Shown: positions 40,477 to 46,550 of the stretch, piece after piece
Position numbering within the stretch: position 1 is the first letter of the stretch
Layout: each line of letters begins with the position of its first letter
Source: Candidatus Heimdallarchaeota archaeon
GTDB lineage: Archaea; Asgardarchaeota; Heimdallarchaeia; JABLTI01
Direction: 5' to 3'
DNA: 64,000 nucleotides
Assembly: GCA_019058275.1 (NCBI GenBank)
Contig: JAHLVW010000036.1
Location: 89,322 to 153,321, forward strand
Notes under the pieces: generated by a model
Seen by the model: the letters and a program-made list of their open reading frames with translations, nothing else
Databases searched by the model: none
Told to the model about the DNA's origin: nothing
Made by a program: the position numbers and the translations under genes

Positions 40477-40617
40477 ATTCACTTTTTTTTCTCATTTTTT
40501 TATTTTATTATGCTCAGGGATAAATTATAAGAAAAATAATCAAAGGAAAAACCTTAACCATTCATTATTTTAAATAATTAATTATTTTATCTTTTAAATA
40601 ATTTATTCGACGATATG

Positions 40618-40667
40618 TTTATATATAAAATGTTCTGAACTATCTATTGATATACAATATGTTGTGG
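40618..40667 (+). promoter_or_regulatory. Promoter of the nrd operon: TATA box plus an NrdR-box-like operator
   Basis: TTTATATA at 40618. ATACAATATGTTGTGG at 40652-40667 fits the NrdR consensus acaCwAtATaTwGtg; weaker look-alikes at 40637 and 40683. Confidence 0.7.
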
Positions 40668-40794
40668 TTAGGGGAATAAAAAACACAAGGACTGGTATGC
40701 TTGGGTTAGTACACAAAACCAAACATTTCCCTCTAGTAAGAACTCTAAACAGGTAAAATAACTAAAATAAGTAAAAAAAGCCGGAGAAAAAGCG

Positions 40795-43215
40795 ATGAAG
40801 TGTCCATACTGTCAATCACCAAACACAAGAGTGGTTGACAAACGACTGTCAGACGATATGAAACAGAATCGTAGAAGACGAGAATGTCTACAATGCAATA
40901 AACGTTTTACCACTTATGAGCGCGTAGATGATGTTAAGTTAACAATTGTAAAGAAAGATAAAAGACGAGAACCCTTCAATCGTGATAAAATTAAAGCAGG
41001 AATTGTCAGGGCTTGTGAAAAAAGACCAATTAGTCTCGAGGAAATTGAAGAAATAATTGATGAAATCGAAAGTGAACTTCGTCAACATGATGATCTGGAA
41101 ATTGAATCACAATATGTTGGCGAAAAAGTAATGGAAAAACTACGAGAACTAGACGAAGTTGCTTTCATTAGGTTTGCTTCTGTTTATAGACGATTCACTG
41201 ACATTGCTTCTTTTGAAAGAGAACTTGAAAAATTAAAAGTCGTAAAAGAAATACAAATTCCGAGTCAAGATTCTACTGAGTTACTATTGTTGGTAGCAGG
41301 TGACACCAAAGAGGAAATATCAAGCTGGGATCGTGATAAAATAACTGCTGCACTTGTAAAAGAAGCTGGCTTGCCCAAAATTGATGCTGAAGATATTGCT
41401 GCTGAAGTTGAGAGAAAGATTTTCGCATCTGGCATTGATGTTATATCAGTTGATCTCATCAGAAGTTTAGTTGATAATGAACTCTTTATCAAAGGTCACA
41501 GTACAAAACTAGCCCAACAAAGAATTGTTGGTATACCAACTTATGATTTGAACCAACTTATCCTTTCAAAAAGCAAAGAAAACAGTAATGTTGTAGCTAA
41601 TAATCCAGAAGCTGTAAATTTGGCTATTGCTGAAACAATTTTGAAGAAATTTGCTTTACAAGAGTTATTTACACCTGAAGTATCAAATGCACATCGTAAA
41701 GGAATGATCTATCTTCATGATTTGGGATTTCCTGTACGTGTTTATTGTTCAGCACACAGTTTAGAGTATATCAAGAAATATGGCTTGAATTTATTGAATC
41801 TCTCTACTGTTTCCTGCCCTGCGAAACATGCTGACACATTAACAGGTCATCTTAATACTTATCTTGCATCAATGCAAGCATATTATGCTGGAGCTTTAGG
41901 CTTAGCTTATTTGAATATCTTCTATGCACCATTTTTTGTGGGAGTTCCTTATAAACAAATCAAACAAGAAGCTCAACGATTAATTTACTCTTGTAGTCAA
42001 AATGCTTTCTCTCGTGGAGGACAAACATTATTCGTTGATTTCAACATTCATCTTGGCATACCTAATTATCTCAAAGATATTCCCGCAATTGGTCCTGGAG
42101 GAAAGTATACCGGTAAAAATTATGGTGACTATGAAAAAGAAACGCAATTGTTTGCTAAAGCATTAATGGATGTATGGTTAGAAGGCGATTCTCAAGGTAA
42201 GGTCTTTCCATTTCCAAAATTCGATCTTCATGTAGATCAAAGTTCATTCGATGATCCAAAACAATACAAATTGCTACAACACGCTTGTAAAATTGCTTCA
42301 GATAATGGATCAACTTACTTTATCTTTGATCGTAACGATATTAATCTTTCAATGTGTTGCAGATTAAAAACAACTATTAAAGACATGTATATGATCGAAC
42401 ATCCAGAGAGCATGCGTTATTGTGGATTCCAAAATGTAAGCATCAATTTACCACAAGCAGCTTATCGTGCAGGTAAAGGAAACACCAAAGAATGTATCGA
42501 AGAAATAAAACGAGCAATGGACATCGCAATGAAAGCTCACTTAGAAAAGAAGGATTTTGTTTACAAATTAATGACTCAAGAAAATGGAACGTTATGGCAA
42601 ATTGGTAAGTTAGCTGAAGATGGAAGACCTTATGTTGATCTAGAAAAAGCCACCTACATTATTGGTGTAATAGGTCTTAATGAGTGTGTTCAATATTTAA
42701 TCGACGAACAAATGCATGAAAGCGAAAAAGCTTACAAACTAGGATTAAGGCTTATTGCAGGAATGAATCTTAAAGCAAAGAGCCTCCAAGAAGAAAATGG
42801 TCTTACCGTAGCATTAGAAGAAACTCCTGGAGAAAGTGCTCCATTCAAATTTGCTAGAACTGATATTCAAGAGTATCCTAATAGTATCCACTATGTTAAG
42901 GGTGACGTAGAAGAAGGATCTATCTATTATACGAATAGTGCACACTTTGCAGCTGATGCACCTATTGATATAATTGACCGTATTTCAAAACAAGGGAAAT
43001 TCAATACCTTAATTGAAAGTGGTTCTATCACTCATGTATTTATTGGTGAACAAAAAATCTCACCAGAATCTATCATGAACTTGGTTAAGAAAACATGGGA
43101 GAATACCCAGAGCGCTCAAATTGTTTTCTCACCAGAATTCACAGTCTGCAATGACTGTGGAAAAGTTAGTAGGGGTTATGGTCGAGCTATGAGTTCATCT
43201 GCTCACAGCCCATAA
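40795..43215 (+). CDS. nrdD: NrdR-NrdD fusion: NrdR (Zn ribbon plus ATP-cone), a second ATP-cone, and the class III RNR core lacking the glycyl-radical tail
   Basis: MKCPYC...RRRRECLQCNKRFTTYE...AFIRFASVY (NrdR); YLHDL, YCSAH, RGGQT, FPFPK, SMCCRL, EETPGES, YYTNS; ends FTVCNDCGK with no RxxGY. Confidence 0.93.
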   Translation: MKCPYCQSPNTRVVDKRLSDDMKQNRRRRECLQCNKRFTTYERVDDVKLTIVKKDKRREPFNRDKIKAGIVRACEKRPISLEEIEEIIDEIESELRQHDDLEIESQYVGEKVMEKLRELDEVAFIRFASVYRRFTDIASFERELEKLKVVKEIQIPSQDSTELLLLVAGDTKEEISSWDRDKITAALVKEAGLPKIDAEDIAAEVERKIFASGIDVISVDLIRSLVDNELFIKGHSTKLAQQRIVGIPTYDLNQLILSKSKENSNVVANNPEAVNLAIAETILKKFALQELFTPEVSNAHRKGMIYLHDLGFPVRVYCSAHSLEYIKKYGLNLLNLSTVSCPAKHADTLTGHLNTYLASMQAYYAGALGLAYLNIFYAPFFVGVPYKQIKQEAQRLIYSCSQNAFSRGGQTLFVDFNIHLGIPNYLKDIPAIGPGGKYTGKNYGDYEKETQLFAKALMDVWLEGDSQGKVFPFPKFDLHVDQSSFDDPKQYKLLQHACKIASDNGSTYFIFDRNDINLSMCCRLKTTIKDMYMIEHPESMRYCGFQNVSINLPQAAYRAGKGNTKECIEEIKRAMDIAMKAHLEKKDFVYKLMTQENGTLWQIGKLAEDGRPYVDLEKATYIIGVIGLNECVQYLIDEQMHESEKAYKLGLRLIAGMNLKAKSLQEENGLTVALEETPGESAPFKFARTDIQEYPNSIHYVKGDVEEGSIYYTNSAHFAADAPIDIIDRISKQGKFNTLIESGSITHVFIGEQKISPESIMNLVKKTWENTQSAQIVFSPEFTVCNDCGKVSRGYGRAMSSSAHSP

Positions 43216-43267
43216 TTTGAGGAAAGAGTAATAACTCAACGAAAAACCATTCGAGGATAAACAGGCC

Positions 43268-43513
43268 ATGGAACAGGCAAATATTCAGAACAAAATGACT
43301 AAAGTAACAGAAATAGCTACTACTTTAGAACACGAGAATAATATTGAAGCGGGTGTTACATGCTCTCCTAACTGCCCACACTGTAAAAGTGATAATGTTT
43401 ATGGTATGAGCAGAGTAGTTGGTTATTTCAGTGTAATTGAAAACTGGAATAATTCCAAAAAATCAGAGCTAAAGAGAAGGCAGAACGGTAACTACTGGTC
43501 TGATGAAGTCTAA
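43268..43513 (+). CDS. Separately encoded C-terminal glycyl-radical domain of the class III RNR
   Basis: CPHCKSDNVYGMSRVVGYFSVIENWNNSKKSELKRR; GAGGA RBS; two in-frame stops upstream. Confidence 0.88.
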   Translation: MEQANIQNKMTKVTEIATTLEHENNIEAGVTCSPNCPHCKSDNVYGMSRVVGYFSVIENWNNSKKSELKRRQNGNYWSDEV

Positions 43514-43624
43514 TTAGAAGACCTTCACCAACAGGAACCAAATTCCCTTCTCTCCTCTTATCTTTTTTAAGGTAAAAATCAAACTAAAAGATAATAGTAT
43601 TAATAAAAATGAGGTAATATAAAT

Positions 43625-43885
43625 ATGAAATTAAAAATATTCATAAAAACAGATTGTCCAAATTGCCCAGCAGCAAAAGAAGTTGGGAAACAACTTGAAA
43701 GCAAAGGTGCAAACATAGAGTGGTTTGACCTTGATAATGAAGATGGATTGTCTGAAGCAGCTTATTTTGATGTGCTCTCAACACCATCATTGATTGTTAT
43801 TGATGAAGATGATAATGAAGTAAAGGCATGGCGTGGAGATATGCCAGAAATAGAGATATTACAAAAAGAATTACAAATAAAATAA
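43625..43885 (+). CDS. Thioredoxin/glutaredoxin-like (NrdH-like) redoxin
   Basis: CPNC active site and VLSTP cis-Pro loop, within the nrd operon. Confidence 0.85.
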   Translation: MKLKIFIKTDCPNCPAAKEVGKQLESKGANIEWFDLDNEDGLSEAAYFDVLSTPSLIVIDEDDNEVKAWRGDMPEIEILQKELQIK

Positions 43886-43902
43886 AGAGATGAGTTTACG
43901 AA

Positions 43903-44607
43903 TTGCCCAAATTAGAAATTAAGGGATATAAGCAAGGATCACTAATTGAATGGTCAGGATTAGTAGTTGATAGTATTTTCTTAGCGGGATGTGATTTTCG
44001 ATGTCCATATTGTCACAATCCTGATTTAGTTTTTACAGATAAAGTCGAAAGTTATGATGTTAACGAAGTCTTAGCTGAGATTGTTAAAAGGGCAAAAAGC
44101 AAATGGCTTGATGGCGTTTCAATAACTGGAGGGGAACCAACCCTTAGTAAGAGATTACCTGATTTCCTAAGAATAATAAAAAACATGGGATTAAAAACTA
44201 AATTTGATACAAATGGAAATCATCCAGATGTAGTGAAAAAAATGATCGAAGAAAATCTAGTAGATTATATTGCTATGGATGTAAAAGCAACACCAGAGAA
44301 ATATCATTTAGCTACAGGGAAAAAAGTGGATATGAAACCAATAAAAGAGACGATTAAAATAATAATTAATTCTGGATTGGATCATGAATTTAGAACAACA
44401 GTTGCACCAACAATTGTGGATCCCATAAAAGATATCCCAAAAATAGCTACAATGATTAAAGGTGCAAAAAGATTTTACATACAGCAATTTAGACCACTTA
44501 GATGTTTAGATAAAAAATTCGAAAAAATGGAACCTTATACCTTAGCAGTTCTTGAGAAAGCTTGGAATAAAGTAAAGGATAAATTCGAGGTTTGTGAAAT
44601 CAGATAA
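43903..44607 (+). CDS. nrdG: Anaerobic ribonucleotide reductase activating protein (radical SAM)
   Basis: GCDFRCPYCHN, ITGGEPT, DTNG, IAMDVKA, EFRTT. Confidence 0.93.
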   Translation: MPKLEIKGYKQGSLIEWSGLVVDSIFLAGCDFRCPYCHNPDLVFTDKVESYDVNEVLAEIVKRAKSKWLDGVSITGGEPTLSKRLPDFLRIIKNMGLKTKFDTNGNHPDVVKKMIEENLVDYIAMDVKATPEKYHLATGKKVDMKPIKETIKIIINSGLDHEFRTTVAPTIVDPIKDIPKIATMIKGAKRFYIQQFRPLRCLDKKFEKMEPYTLAVLEKAWNKVKDKFEVCEIR

Positions 44608-44708: not shown

Positions 44709-46550
44709 TTGGCAAAGATTCAAACATTAGTACATAAAGGAGTTCTCGTAAACGAAATACTACATATAGGGTTGGGTATTGAAATTGACGGTAAATCACA
44801 TAAACTTACACCAAAACAAGAACAAATGGCAATTGCTTGGGTAAAGAAACTTTCAACAGTTTATGTTGAGGATCCAATTTTTTGTAAGAACTTCTTCAAA
44901 GATTTTAGTAAAGAACTAGGGCAACCAAGTTTAACGGATGAAAATATAGACTTCTCTGAAGTAATTACACATATTGAAGCTGAACGAACAGCTAGAGAAG
45001 CAATGACGAAAGAAGAAAAGAAAGCAGCAAGAGAAGATAGAAAAGTAATTCGTGAAGACCTAAAGAAAGAATATGGAACCGCTTTATTAGATGGTGTAGA
45101 GGTCGAAATATCAAATTATATTGCTGAACCAAGTAGCATATTCATGGGGAGAGGAGAACACCCAATGAGGGGAAAATGGAAAGAGGGTCCTGAAAAAAGT
45201 GACATTATTTTGAATCATAGCTCAAAAGATCAGCTAAATGAAAGTGATTGGAAAGTAATCGTTTGGGAACCAGAATGTTTATGGATTGCAAAATGGGAAG
45301 ATAAACTCTCAGGTAAAACAAAATATGTTTGGTTATCTGATAATACTCCTATTAAGCAAGATAGAGAAATTGAGAAATATGATAAAGCTAGGTTGGTTGG
45401 TGACAATCTAGGGAAAATCAGATCTAAAACAATGAACGCAATAAGAAGTGAAGACAAAGCAAAAAGAAAAATCGCAACAGCATGTTATTTAATTGATTAT
45501 TTAACCATGCGTGTTGGTGATGAAAAAGATGAAGATGAAGCTGACACAGTTGGTGCAACAACCTTACGACCAGAACATATAACAATAAATGGTAATATTG
45601 TGAAATTCAATTTTCTAGGAAAAGACTCTGTTGAATGGAATAAGAAGGAAGAATTTCCAGATGAAGCTATTAAAGTTCTGAAAGAACTAATAGAAGAGGC
45701 TAATAATTCAGGGGAAGATAAACCTCAGATTTTTGGAAATATTGGCAGTCGTCATGTCAATGCTTTTCTGGGTGAAATTGTTGATGGGTTGACAGCTAAA
45801 GTCTTTAGAACATATCATGCTACTAGCATAGTTGAAAAACATATTGAAGAAGCAGACGTAGATTCAAATGATCCTGATTTTGTAAAGAAAGAAGCAGCAG
45901 TTATGGCTAATAGAGAAGCAGCAATTAATTGTACTCATATGAAGCAAGAACCAAAGAATTGGGAAAATAGGATTCAACGATTCAGAGAGCGAAAAATAAA
46001 AGCTAATGTACGACTAGATAAAGCAAAAGCTAACCAAGAGAATAGAGAAATGAGATTGGAAGATCTCAAAGAGAATTTAAAACTAAGAAGAAAAGCAGCG
46101 AAAGAACAACAGAAAATACTTGAGCAAACAAAAGCTGATTTAGAAGAAATAAAAAGCATGGAAGTGAATCCAGAGGACAAAAAGGAAAAAGAACGACATA
46201 AGAAAGCAATAGAGAAAGCCAAGAAAAAAGTTGAGACAAAGAAAAAACGAATGATAACAGCTGAGAAAAGAATTGATACAGCTAAAGGACAAATAGAGAG
46301 AGGAAAGAATAGTCTAGGAACAGCAAAGGAACGAATATACAAAGCTAAACTAGCGTTAAAGAAAATTGAATCACAAGAAAGAATCTCAAAGAAAACTAAG
46401 ACATGGAACTTAGGAACAAGTTTGAAATCATATATTGATCCAAGAGTCTATTACAATTGGGGTAAAGAAGTAGATTATGATTGGCGAAATTACTATTCAA
46501 ATACTTTACAAAAGAAGTTTTCTTGGGTTGAAAGAGAAGAAAATGACTAA
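44709..46550 (+). CDS. top1: DNA topoisomerase IB, eukaryote-like large type
   Basis: GRGEHPMRGKWK, RVGDEK, DTVGATTL, FLGKDS, AKVFRTY, CTH, a coiled-coil linker, and GTSLKSYIDPR (catalytic Tyr). Confidence 0.93.
   Translation: MAKIQTLVHKGVLVNEILHIGLGIEIDGKSHKLTPKQEQMAIAWVKKLSTVYVEDPIFCKNFFKDFSKELGQPSLTDENIDFSEVITHIEAERTAREAMTKEEKKAAREDRKVIREDLKKEYGTALLDGVEVEISNYIAEPSSIFMGRGEHPMRGKWKEGPEKSDIILNHSSKDQLNESDWKVIVWEPECLWIAKWEDKLSGKTKYVWLSDNTPIKQDREIEKYDKARLVGDNLGKIRSKTMNAIRSEDKAKRKIATACYLIDYLTMRVGDEKDEDEADTVGATTLRPEHITINGNIVKFNFLGKDSVEWNKKEEFPDEAIKVLKELIEEANNSGEDKPQIFGNIGSRHVNAFLGEIVDGLTAKVFRTYHATSIVEKHIEEADVDSNDPDFVKKEAAVMANREAAINCTHMKQEPKNWENRIQRFRERKIKANVRLDKAKANQENREMRLEDLKENLKLRRKAAKEQQKILEQTKADLEEIKSMEVNPEDKKEKERHKKAIEKAKKKVETKKKRMITAEKRIDTAKGQIERGKNSLGTAKERIYKAKLALKKIESQERISKKTKTWNLGTSLKSYIDPRVYYNWGKEVDYDWRNYYSNTLQKKFSWVEREEND

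What the first reader, a model, noticed from the sequence alone, without database searches (positions are those of the whole stretch)
43130..43513. Split class III RNR: the glycyl-radical domain is a separate 81-aa protein sharing a Zn site with the large subunit
Seen: the large ORF ends after one CxxC (CNDC). The second CxxC (CPHC) and the radical motif SRVVGYF (Gly codon 43421-43423) lie in the next ORF. That ORF is in a different frame, has a GAGGA RBS and its own N-terminal extension. Two stops occur in each of the two relevant frames, so a single sequencing error cannot rejoin them. Known: in NrdD the four Cys form one Zn site, O2 cleaves the backbone at the glycyl radical, and GrcA/YfiD is a spare-part radical domain for pyruvate formate-lyase. 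Inference: an intermolecular Zn clasp holds an exchangeable radical cartridge, so oxygen damage would sacrifice only the small subunit and spare the NrdR-fused large one.
Basis: partly seen in the sequence, partly recalled or inferred. Interest (0 to 1): 0.8.

Follow-up and report, generated by a model that had tools for sequence, protein, structure and literature searches.

The report
Two-piece anaerobic ribonucleotide reductase, spare radical subunits
This Asgard archaeon encodes the only DNA-precursor enzyme found in its genome (the oxygen-sensitive class III ribonucleotide reductase) as a large catalytic body plus a separate 81-residue protein that carries the radical glycine and half of a zinc site, and it keeps two more unlinked copies of that small protein; I found no published description of this layout.

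Summary
nrdD is two genes. An 806-aa body (40795-43215) ends after the first CxxC. An 81-aa protein (43268-43513) carries the second CxxC and the glycyl-radical motif. No single indel can join them.

The split is conserved in all 9 nrdD loci recovered from the family. The spacer is 46-80 nt and unalignable, the frame offset is 0, 1 or 2, and a GAGGA/GAGGT ribosome-binding site always precedes the ATG. Both sides are under purifying selection.

The same cassette (large, small, thioredoxin-like, nrdG) occurs in DPANN archaea and other uncultured lineages. There the small gene can overlap the large one by 4-8 nt, which excludes an intron.

A two-chain model with Zn scored ipSAE 0.91 (best control 0.13) and pairs the Cys across chains. 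This may partly reflect likeness to solved one-chain NrdD.

No other RNR was found in the genome (93% complete).

New here: each genome of the family keeps 2-3 small-subunit genes. The extra copies sit at conserved unlinked loci, are under purifying selection, and lack the NrdR boxes of the operon.

The "exchangeable cartridge" idea is plausible but not shown. This scan has already found split NrdD on other DNA, including a related Asgard genome. I found no paper describing it.

The parts
40617..40698 (+). Promoter region of the operon. It holds a TATA-like gtttatatata (about 40617-40627) followed by two NrdR-box-like palindromes, ATACAATATGTTGTGG (40652-40667) and ACACAAGGACTGGTAT (40683-40698), 31 nt apart.
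   Evidence: sequence; the first box is present in all 8 related loci with 1-4 mismatches to the bacterial NrdR-box consensus, which I recalled from memory. The scan flagged a second box 31 nt downstream in 2 loci (L003, L005), and similar sequence is visible by eye in others. Whether NrdR binds here is an inference.
40795..43215 (+). nrdD large subunit, 806 aa. It comprises an NrdR-type zinc ribbon (residues 1-42), ATP-cone(s), and the class III RNR barrel (residues 262-793). It ends 18 residues after the first CxxC and has no glycyl-radical motif.
   Evidence: It is 806 aa in 6 of 8 related loci (804 and 808 aa in the other two). One search lists the invariant residues, including C521, C522, R523, C785 and C788.
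43147..43182 (+). First zinc knuckle CNDC (C785-C788, 43147-43158) plus the conserved tail motif GKVSRGYGR.
   Evidence: C785 and C788 are invariant in 120 homologues. KVSRGYGR has pN/pS 0.15 against 0.53 for the rest of the tail. K790, S792, Y795 and G796 lie in the predicted interface.
43216..43267 (+). A 52-nt A-rich spacer containing the Shine-Dalgarno-like GAGGA (43253-43257).
   Evidence: Across 9 loci the spacer is 46-80 nt and unalignable, except for GAGGA/GAGGT 8-11 nt before the ATG. Stops occur in all frames.
43268..43513 (+). nrdD small subunit, 81 aa. It has a weakly constrained N-terminal extension (residues 1-33), the second zinc knuckle CPHC (C36/C39, 43373-43384), the glycyl-radical loop SRVVGYF (Gly52, 43421-43423), and the C-terminal WN..SK..ELKRRQ.GNYW segment.
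   Evidence: Invariant residues: C36, C39, S41, S48, R49, V51, G52, Y53, S55, N59, W60, K64, E67, R71. Core pN/pS is 0.11-0.14. Predicted interface residues are 34-78.
43625..43885 (+). Thioredoxin/glutaredoxin-like protein of 86 aa with a CPNC motif. It is the likely reductant of the enzyme.
   Evidence: Thioredoxin_3, 28.5 bits. A gene of the same size holds the same position in distant cassettes. The reductant role is inferred from thioredoxin-dependent NrdD subtypes (my own knowledge).
43903..44607 (+). nrdG, the radical-SAM activating enzyme, 234 aa.
   Evidence: Radical_SAM 83.5 bits, Fer4_12 46.9 bits. It is the only homologue at E<=1e-5 in the genome. It holds the same position in distant cassettes.

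Best explanation
This is a working class III (glycyl-radical) ribonucleotide reductase built from two polypeptides.

The large chain supplies the NrdR-like and ATP-cone regulatory modules, the ten-stranded barrel with the finger-loop cysteines, and the first CxxC. The small chain supplies the second CxxC, the loop bearing the radical glycine (Gly52), and the C-terminal helix.

The small chain docks as the C-terminal domain of one-piece NrdD does. Its strand (residues 43-49) pairs with the last strand of the large chain (779-788). The four cysteines close one zinc site across the chain boundary. The Gly loop reaches into the barrel next to C522. NrdG, encoded two genes downstream, installs the radical, and the 86-aa thioredoxin-like protein is the probable reductant.

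The cassette belongs to a widespread clade of split NrdD found mainly in uncultured archaea (DPANN). This Asgard family probably acquired it horizontally. The family also maintains two further, unlinked, separately promoted genes for the small chain. I read these as alternative or reserve radical subunits for the same large chain.

Shown: the gene anatomy, its conservation, selection, distribution and paralogy. Inferred: assembly, shared zinc, activation, and the role of the extra copies.
For: Split and conservation:
1. Pfam NRDD is split cleanly at profile position 518/519 between the two ORFs.
2. The split is conserved in 9 of 9 nrdD loci recovered from the family. The spacer is 46-80 nt, the frame offset is 0, 1 or 2, and the SD and the MEQA start are conserved.
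3. Selection is purifying where synonymous sites are near saturation. pN/pS is 0.11-0.14 for the small core and 0.15 for SRGYGR, against 0.11 for the upstream 100 codons of the large gene.
4. Only one large NRDD gene was found, and no class I/II RNR (PF02867, TIGR02504), in a 92.8% complete genome. The split enzyme is therefore the only RNR found.

Distribution:
5. Three distant loci carry the same cassette, nrdR (separate or fused), large, small (59-79 aa), thioredoxin-like, nrdG. In two of them the small gene overlaps the large one by 4 or 8 nt.
6. Of the 120 nearest large-subunit clusters, 78 lack the Gly motif. In a FastTree they share one side of a 100-supported branch with only 3 fused forms.
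7. The linkers of fused relatives are homologous to the tails of split ones: AADGGE is shared by P0272 and by P0305/P0308.

Assembly:
8. C785 and C788 are invariant in 120 sequences, and C36 and C39 in 80.
9. The two-chain model with Zn scored ipSAE 0.91 in three runs. The best of 3 controls scored 0.13. That mark was reached by 58 of 80 solved complexes and 2 of 110 mismatched pairs. Runs agreed in at least 80% of contacts, and the partner pLDDT was at least 62. Contacts include C785-C36, C788-C39, strand 779-788 with 43-49, and 522-523 with the Gly loop.

Extra copies:
10. Each of the 12 family genomes has 1-3 short-frame copies (2-3 in all but the 64%-complete one). No other Asgard family among the 400 genomes searched has this.
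11. The orphan copies are syntenic across genomes, keep all 14 invariant residues, and have pN/pS of 0.13-0.20.
Against: - There is no transcript, peptide or biochemical evidence; everything is inferred from metagenome-assembled sequence.
- The complex model is of two halves of a fold solved as one chain (4COI/4U3E, 1H78, 8P23). Its pass may come from likeness to those structures. My own alignments and a riding zinc also differ from the tool's calibration.
- Genome completeness is 92.8%, so a second RNR could be unassembled.
- The role of the extra copies is untested. One group has no ATG/GTG/TTG start (ATA instead), and one copy in a relative is cut short by a TAA.
- The tree is a FastTree with local supports only.
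Confidence: 0.85

Rival explanations
1. Spare-part or cartridge reading. The small chain is designed to be exchanged. After oxygen cleaves it at Gly52, the fragments leave and a fresh small chain, from the operon gene or from the two orphan genes, restores the undamaged 806-aa body, as GrcA/YfiD does for pyruvate formate-lyase. This adds to the best explanation rather than excluding it.
For: - Two extra small-subunit genes per genome sit at conserved unlinked loci. They keep every invariant and interface residue and are under purifying selection.
- They have their own TATA-like promoters and lack the NrdR boxes of the operon, so their supply is decoupled from that of the large chain.
- Only one large chain and one NrdG were found for them to serve.
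- The variable, probably disordered N-terminal extension, absent from the confident interface, recalls the disordered N-terminus of YfiD that aids activation (review).
Against: - Nothing shows exchange.
- A zinc site shared by both chains and about 150 confident contacts argue for a tight complex, not a loose one. The N-terminal cleavage fragment would keep both zinc ligands and the paired strand.
- Extra copies can be explained by dosage or by differential expression without any repair role.
- No haem-copper oxidase was found, so the organism may seldom meet oxygen.
Confidence: 0.3
2. The two ORFs are rejoined into one polypeptide by an intron (group I or archaeal bulge-helix-bulge), a programmed frameshift or readthrough, or protein trans-splicing.
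For: The phage T4 nrdD gene carries a group I intron (my own knowledge). The two ORFs are adjacent, in order, and split exactly within a loop.
Against: - No Rfam family is matched at 42800-43900; the best hit has E 4.1 and is far below gathering score.
- The spacer is unalignable and of variable length. The frame offset is 0, 1 or 2 among close relatives, and stops occur in every frame.
- A conserved SD and ATG precede the small ORF.
- In distant lineages the small gene overlaps the large one by 4-8 nt, which leaves no room for an intron.
- The tail (18 aa) plus the extension (about 33 aa) is far too short for a split intein, and there is no His-Asn/Cys junction.
- Unlinked orphan copies are free-standing genes.
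Confidence: 0.03
3. It is a decaying pseudogene or an assembly or binning artefact.
For: The sequence comes from a metagenome-assembled genome with 6.8% estimated contamination.
Against: - The architecture is identical in 9 independent assemblies of two genera and in many public contigs from four sources.
- Purifying selection acts on both parts.
- It is the only RNR found in the genome.
- The downstream thioredoxin-like and nrdG genes are conserved.
Confidence: 0.02
4. The orphan small proteins are regulators rather than parts. They would compete with the operon copy for the large chain or for NrdG, or hold the radical in reserve, to tune dNTP synthesis.
For: They have independent promoters without NrdR boxes. 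One orthologue group has a conserved weak ATA start. The N-terminal extensions differ between paralogues.
Against: They keep the radical glycine, both zinc cysteines and all interface residues. That is what a working part needs and more than a decoy needs. No paralogue-specific change in the core suggests an inactive form.
Confidence: 0.1

Closest known systems
One-piece class III ribonucleotide reductase NrdD with activase NrdG (Thermotoga maritima 4COI/4U3E, phage T4 1H78/1HK8, Prevotella copri 8P23)
   Same: It has the same barrel family (Pfam NRDD 374.9 bits) and matches solved chains by sequence. It shares the four-Cys zinc ribbon followed by the RVxGY radical loop, an adjacent radical-SAM activase, and N-terminal ATP-cone regulation.
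   Different: The chain is cut inside the zinc ribbon, between the two CxxC knuckles. The radical glycine therefore sits on a separate 81-aa protein, and the zinc site would be intermolecular. There are extra unlinked genes for the small part, and an NrdR zinc ribbon is fused to the N-terminus.
GrcA/YfiD of E. coli and Y06I of phage T4 (autonomous glycyl-radical cofactors for pyruvate formate-lyase)
   Same: It is a small free-standing protein made of a variable or disordered N-terminus plus a glycyl-radical domain. Unlinked copies exist beside the main enzyme. A shared activase is presumed.
   Different: It has an NrdD-type rather than a PFL-type radical domain, and a zinc half-site that GrcA lacks. 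The partner enzyme has no radical domain of its own, so the small protein is an obligate subunit and not only a replacement. Rescue is untested. The 2026 review states that spare parts are known only for formate lyases.
Split class II RNR NrdJa/NrdJb of Pseudomonas aeruginosa (PMC4520616; discussed in PMC9669993)
   Same: It is a ribonucleotide reductase naturally encoded as two consecutive genes, with the C-terminal Cys-rich/zinc-finger part on the second chain.
   Different: It belongs to a different RNR class and uses a different cofactor (B12). The cut point differs, and the second chain carries reducing cysteines rather than the radical site.
Class I RNR alpha/beta
   Same: In concept, the catalytic barrel and the radical-storing unit are separate polypeptides.
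   Different: The radical subunit is unrelated (a ferritin-like metallo-protein), and the radical is transferred over a long range rather than by insertion of the radical loop into the barrel.

Membership tests
Class III RNR catalytic subunit NrdD (Pfam PF13597) | Ten-stranded barrel domain matching the NRDD profile | tested here: met
   374.9 bits, residues 262-793 against profile 1-518 of 562; matches 4COI/4U3E, 8P23, 9D3X and 1H78.
Class III RNR catalytic subunit NrdD (Pfam PF13597) | C-terminal glycyl-radical motif RVxGY on the same polypeptide as the barrel | tested here: not met
   The motif SRVVGYF lies in the next ORF, in another frame, after stops in all frames. The same is true in 9 related loci.
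Class III RNR catalytic subunit NrdD (Pfam PF13597) | Four-cysteine zinc site preceding the radical loop | tested here: inconclusive
   All four Cys are present and invariant, but split 2+2 between the chains. The model brings C785/C36 and C788/C39 together. Metal binding itself cannot be tested here.
Class III RNR catalytic subunit NrdD (Pfam PF13597) | Finger-loop cysteine next to the radical glycine | tested here: inconclusive
   C521 and C522 are invariant. Residues 522-523 are in the confident interface with the Gly-loop region of the small chain. This is a model only.
Class III RNR system | Dedicated radical-SAM activase NrdG encoded nearby | tested here: met
   (Radical_SAM and Fer4_12, 234 aa, at 43903-44607). 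It is a single copy in the genome. Its position is conserved in distant cassettes.
GrcA/YfiD-type spare-part protein | Small autonomous protein consisting of a glycyl-radical domain | tested here: met
   59-114-aa free-standing genes, including unlinked copies.
GrcA/YfiD-type spare-part protein | Homology to the PFL C-terminal radical domain (Pfam Gly_radical PF01228) | tested here: not met
   the only significant Pfam family above its cut-off is NRDD (positions 519-560).
GrcA/YfiD-type spare-part protein | Partner enzyme has its own radical domain, which the small protein replaces after oxygen cleavage | tested here: not met
   the only large NrdD found ends before the radical domain.
GrcA/YfiD-type spare-part protein | Restores activity to oxygen-damaged enzyme | not testable with these tools
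   This needs anaerobic biochemistry.
NrdR (N-terminal module of the large chain) | Zinc ribbon plus ATP-cone, with NrdR boxes in nrd promoters | tested here: met
   (Zn_ribbon_NrdR 64.8 bits, ATP-cone 96.6 bits). (E about 1e-40 to solved NrdR). (NrdR-box-like palindrome upstream in all 8 loci). DNA binding is not tested.

The most novel reading that the evidence does not exclude
The small proteins form a renewable pool of diffusible radical carriers. NrdG activates them free in solution, so no radical domain needs to flip out of the barrel. They then dock on the large chain through the shared zinc site. After oxygen cleavage they are replaced, with three differently controlled genes feeding the pool: the NrdR-box operon copy, and two orphans with their own promoters, one using an ATA start. 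This would be the first spare-part or exchangeable-cofactor system for a glycyl-radical enzyme outside pyruvate formate-lyase. It would also be a class III counterpart of the class I alpha/beta division of labour.
Probability: 0.25. Interest if true: 0.85.

Novelty: new variant of a known kind. Interest (0 to 1): 0.7.

Why it matters
All characterised glycyl-radical enzymes carry the radical glycine on the catalytic chain. The one known free-standing radical domain, GrcA/YfiD, serves pyruvate formate-lyase only. A June 2026 review states that it is yet to be determined whether spare parts exist for other glycyl-radical enzymes.

A natural class III RNR whose radical domain is a separate 9-kDa protein gives a direct experimental handle on three questions:
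- How the activase reaches the glycine.
- Whether the radical domain can be exchanged after oxygen damage.
- Whether a zinc site can clasp two chains together.

The enzyme is multi-copy in this lineage and is the only RNR found in the genome. It also shows that many "truncated" NrdD entries in DPANN, Asgard and other uncultured lineages are complete enzymes, which matters for annotation and for RNR phylogenies that filter on the C-terminal domain.

Tried and rejected
- Intron or RNA element at the junction: the Rfam scan of 42800-43900 at E<=10 gave only chance-level snoRNA/miRNA hits.
- Frameshift, readthrough or split intein: rejected on the variable frame offsets, the stops in all frames, the conserved SD and ATG, the overlapping genes in DPANN, and the short length of the flanking peptides.
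- Pseudogene or artefact: rejected on conservation and selection.
- A second large NrdD or a PFL-type partner for the orphans: only one NRDD barrel was found. The one PFL-like enzyme sits in a 791-aa open frame, long enough to include its own radical domain; I did not check the motif.
- A shared promoter motif between orphans and operon: TCTCTNGAGTTT occurs at the chance rate in the window, and no NrdR-box-like site lies within 350 nt upstream of any of 20 orphan genes.
- Short-frame matches in other Asgard families as further split or spare genes: on inspection, those in L083, L085 and L086 are 3'-terminal fragments of one-piece NrdD that carry both CxxC pairs, near an intact nrdD or at contig ends. 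They are not the same thing.
- Literature: four full-text searches and five papers read gave split class II RNR and GrcA/YfiD, but no split class III RNR.
- A co-occurrence rule between the split and the NrdR fusion: not supported.
Full report
**What is in the sequence**

- The large ORF (40795-43215, 806 aa) ends ...FSPEFTVCNDCGKVSRGYGRAMSSSAHSP-TAA.
- A 52-nt A-rich spacer follows, with GAGGA at 43253-43257.
- An 81-aa ORF (43268-43513), in another frame, holds CPHC and SRVVGYF. Gly52 is encoded at 43421-43423.
- Stops in both relevant frames overlap, so no single indel can fuse the ORFs.
- Pfam NRDD is divided exactly between them: profile 1-518 on the large protein and 519-560 on the small one.
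- Downstream lie an 86-aa thioredoxin-like gene and a 234-aa radical-SAM nrdG.
- The first 148 residues of the large protein are a bona fide NrdR module, with E about 1e-40 to solved NrdR chains.

**Is it a real two-gene enzyme?**

The window lies in a 4.1-Mb, 32% GC genome (92.8% complete). Near-identical proteins in public records are labelled Heimdallarchaeota or Asgard.

All 9 nrdD loci recovered from 8 other genomes of its family (two genera) show the same split:
- The large ORF is 804-808 aa.
- The spacer is 46-80 nt and cannot be aligned.
- The frame offset is 0, 1 or 2.
- GAGGA or GAGGT lies 8-11 nt before an ATG that opens MEQA... in 8 of the 9 loci.

Synonymous sites are near saturation (pS 0.65-0.78). 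Against that background:
- pN/pS is 0.11-0.14 for the small-protein core.
- pN/pS is 0.15 for the KVSRGYGR motif that follows the first CxxC.
- pN/pS is 0.11 for the preceding 100 codons of the large gene.
- The rest of the tail (0.53) and the N-terminal extension of the small protein (0.64) are only weakly constrained.

The genome has a single NRDD barrel. No class I/II RNR was found with PF02867 or TIGR02504; the controls rang in 12 and 13 of 14 genomes. The split enzyme is therefore the only RNR found.

**Rejoining is excluded as far as sequence can show**

- Rfam finds nothing at the junction.
- Three distant loci were examined: one labelled Woesearchaeota, one labelled "archaeon", and one from an unnamed metagenome bin. 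All carry the same cassette: nrdR (separate or fused), large chain, small chain of 59-79 aa, thioredoxin-like gene, nrdG.
- In two of them the small gene overlaps the large one by 8 or 4 nt, leaving no room for an intron.

**Distribution and origin**

- Among 400 genomes of the phylum, only this family (12 of 12 genomes) has the small protein in short open frames. Other families have one-piece NrdD in 600-2,400-aa frames. Those proteins share only about 30% identity with ours.
- The nearest large-chain relatives outside the family (61-68% identity) come from DPANN archaea and assorted uncultured bacteria.
- Of the 120 best clusters, 78 lack the Gly motif. Of these, 64 are plain split forms and 14 have an extra Cys-rich C-terminal domain. 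The other 42 are fused.
- I built a FastTree on barrel columns only, leaving out the trait's own columns. All 78 split forms lie on one side of a branch with local support 100, together with just 3 fused forms. The tree needs at least 4 changes of state.
- The linkers of those fused forms are homologous to the tails of their split sisters. P0272 has ...LAADGGERMAKCGYC, and P0305 and P0308 have ...IAADGGESN-stop. Fission and fusion have therefore toggled at this loop.
- I infer that the Asgard family acquired an already split cassette horizontally. The direction of transfer is not tested.

**How the pieces would fit**

- C785 and C788 are invariant in 120 large chains, and C36 and C39 in 80 small chains. 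R49, G52 and Y53 are also invariant.
- The two-chain prediction used large-chain residues 240-806, the small chain and Zn. It scored ipSAE 0.91, 0.91 and 0.90.
- The three controls scored 0.00, 0.00 and 0.13. That mark was reached by 58 of 80 solved complexes and 2 of 110 mismatched pairs.
- The runs agree in at least 80% of contacts, and the partner pLDDT is at least 62.
- Confident contacts pair strand 779-788 with small-chain residues 43-49, C785 with C36, C788 with C39, and residues 522-523 (the invariant CCR) with the Gly-loop region. They also include K790, S792, Y795 and G796 of the conserved tail motif.
- Small-chain residues 1-33 and large-chain residues 797-806 are not in the confident interface.
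- Caveat: these are halves of a fold solved as a single chain. The pass shows likeness to one-piece NrdD rather than independent proof of binding. My alignments and the riding zinc also differ from the tool's calibration.

**Extra small-subunit genes**

The own genome has two further copies:
- One lies on contig 79 (73-aa ORF, L022 1432-1653).
- One lies on contig 52 (81-codon open frame, L021 1411-1656).

Family genomes carry 1-3 copies each, 2-3 in all but the 64%-complete one. The orphans fall into syntenic sets:
- One set lies between a 306-aa protein with no Pfam match, a lysine-rich protein and two Roadblock/LC7 genes. It is found in 12 genomes, including the second genus.
- One set lies between uvrA and an amidohydrolase, in 6-7 genomes.
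- One set lies beside an HD-domain gene, in 2 genomes.

Their cores keep all 14 family-invariant residues, with pN/pS of 0.13-0.20 at pS of 0.42-0.69.

In five genomes the uvrA-locus copy has a conserved TATA-like box, the SD GAGGGA, and ATA exactly where the G009 orthologue has ATG.

The operon promoter carries NrdR-box-like palindromes downstream of its TATA box. One box is present in all 8 loci. A second was flagged 31 nt downstream in 2 loci and is visible at 40683-40698 in the window. None of 20 orphan upstream regions has such a site. Only one NrdG homologue was found.

**Interpretation**

The best-supported reading is a functional two-chain class III RNR (confidence 0.85).

It remains unproven, and a tight, zinc-clasped interface weighs against it to some degree (0.3).

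**Comparison with what is known**

- Split class II NrdJa/NrdJb is published.
- GrcA/YfiD is the only known spare part. The 2026 review says it is undetermined whether others exist.
- I found no description of a split class III RNR.
- This scan has reported the same phenomenon on other DNA, including a related Asgard genome with three small subunits. I re-derived each point independently here.

Noticed in passing
window 40617-40698 and 40795-41240: The large chain begins with a complete NrdR module (zinc ribbon plus ATP-cone) fused to NrdD. Its promoter carries NrdR-box-like palindromes just downstream of a TATA box: ATACAATATGTTGTGG at 40652-40667, and a second at 40683-40698, 31 nt on. The first box is conserved in all 8 related loci. 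In DPANN cassettes nrdR is a separate gene immediately upstream. The enzyme may repress its own operon.
   Followed up: partly
L021 1409-1425 (= G000 contig 52); L073, L067, L062, L064, L065: In five genomes the uvrA-adjacent orphan small-subunit gene has no ATG/GTG/TTG start. A conserved ATA, 5 nt after the SD GAGGGA, aligns exactly with the ATG of the G009 orthologue. This suggests a conserved non-canonical, probably weak, start codon.
   Followed up: partly
L072 (G006 contig 57, 32289-32495): The uvrA-locus copy in one relative is cut short by a TAA after ...AEFSKR, losing the last 10 or so interface residues. It may be a decaying copy.
   Followed up: no
P0244-P0249, P0253, P0257, P0258 and others; L077 3001-5391: A third architecture is seen in 14 clusters. 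These are split large chains that carry an extra Cys-rich C-terminal domain (W-Y-x-C-P-x-C-G ... I-C-G-D ... G-G-C) after the first CxxC. They still have a separate 79-aa radical subunit.
   Followed up: partly
L083 (G198 contig 6, 3000-13000), L085, L086: In another Asgard family, short frames matching the small protein are 3'-terminal fragments of one-piece NrdD that hold both CxxC pairs. Two such fragments lie within 7 kb of an intact nrdD. They may be target-site duplications left by integrating elements; a 2025 preprint reports Tn7-like elements that use nrdD as an attachment site in Asgard archaea.
   Followed up: partly
L087 1329-1658 (G336 contig 152): A 110-aa frame ends in MSRVVGYFSKIENWN...RQKGDYQLKD but has no CxxC before the radical loop and an unrelated N-terminal half. 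This is a different kind of free-standing NrdD-type radical domain.
   Followed up: no
window 44709-46550: A eukaryote-type topoisomerase IB (Topoisom_I_N, Topoisom_I and Topo_C_assoc domains, 613 aa) lies immediately downstream of nrdG.
   Followed up: no
L012-L014 (G035, G021, G023); P0278: One-piece NrdD genes of a sister family sit in open frames of 1,242-2,466 aa, which suggests inteins. A Micrarchaeota split large chain (P0278) has intein/LAGLIDADG Pfam domains.
   Followed up: no
G000 contig 34, 2995-4935 (L081): The genome also encodes a PFL-like glycyl-radical enzyme in a 791-aa open frame.
   Followed up: no
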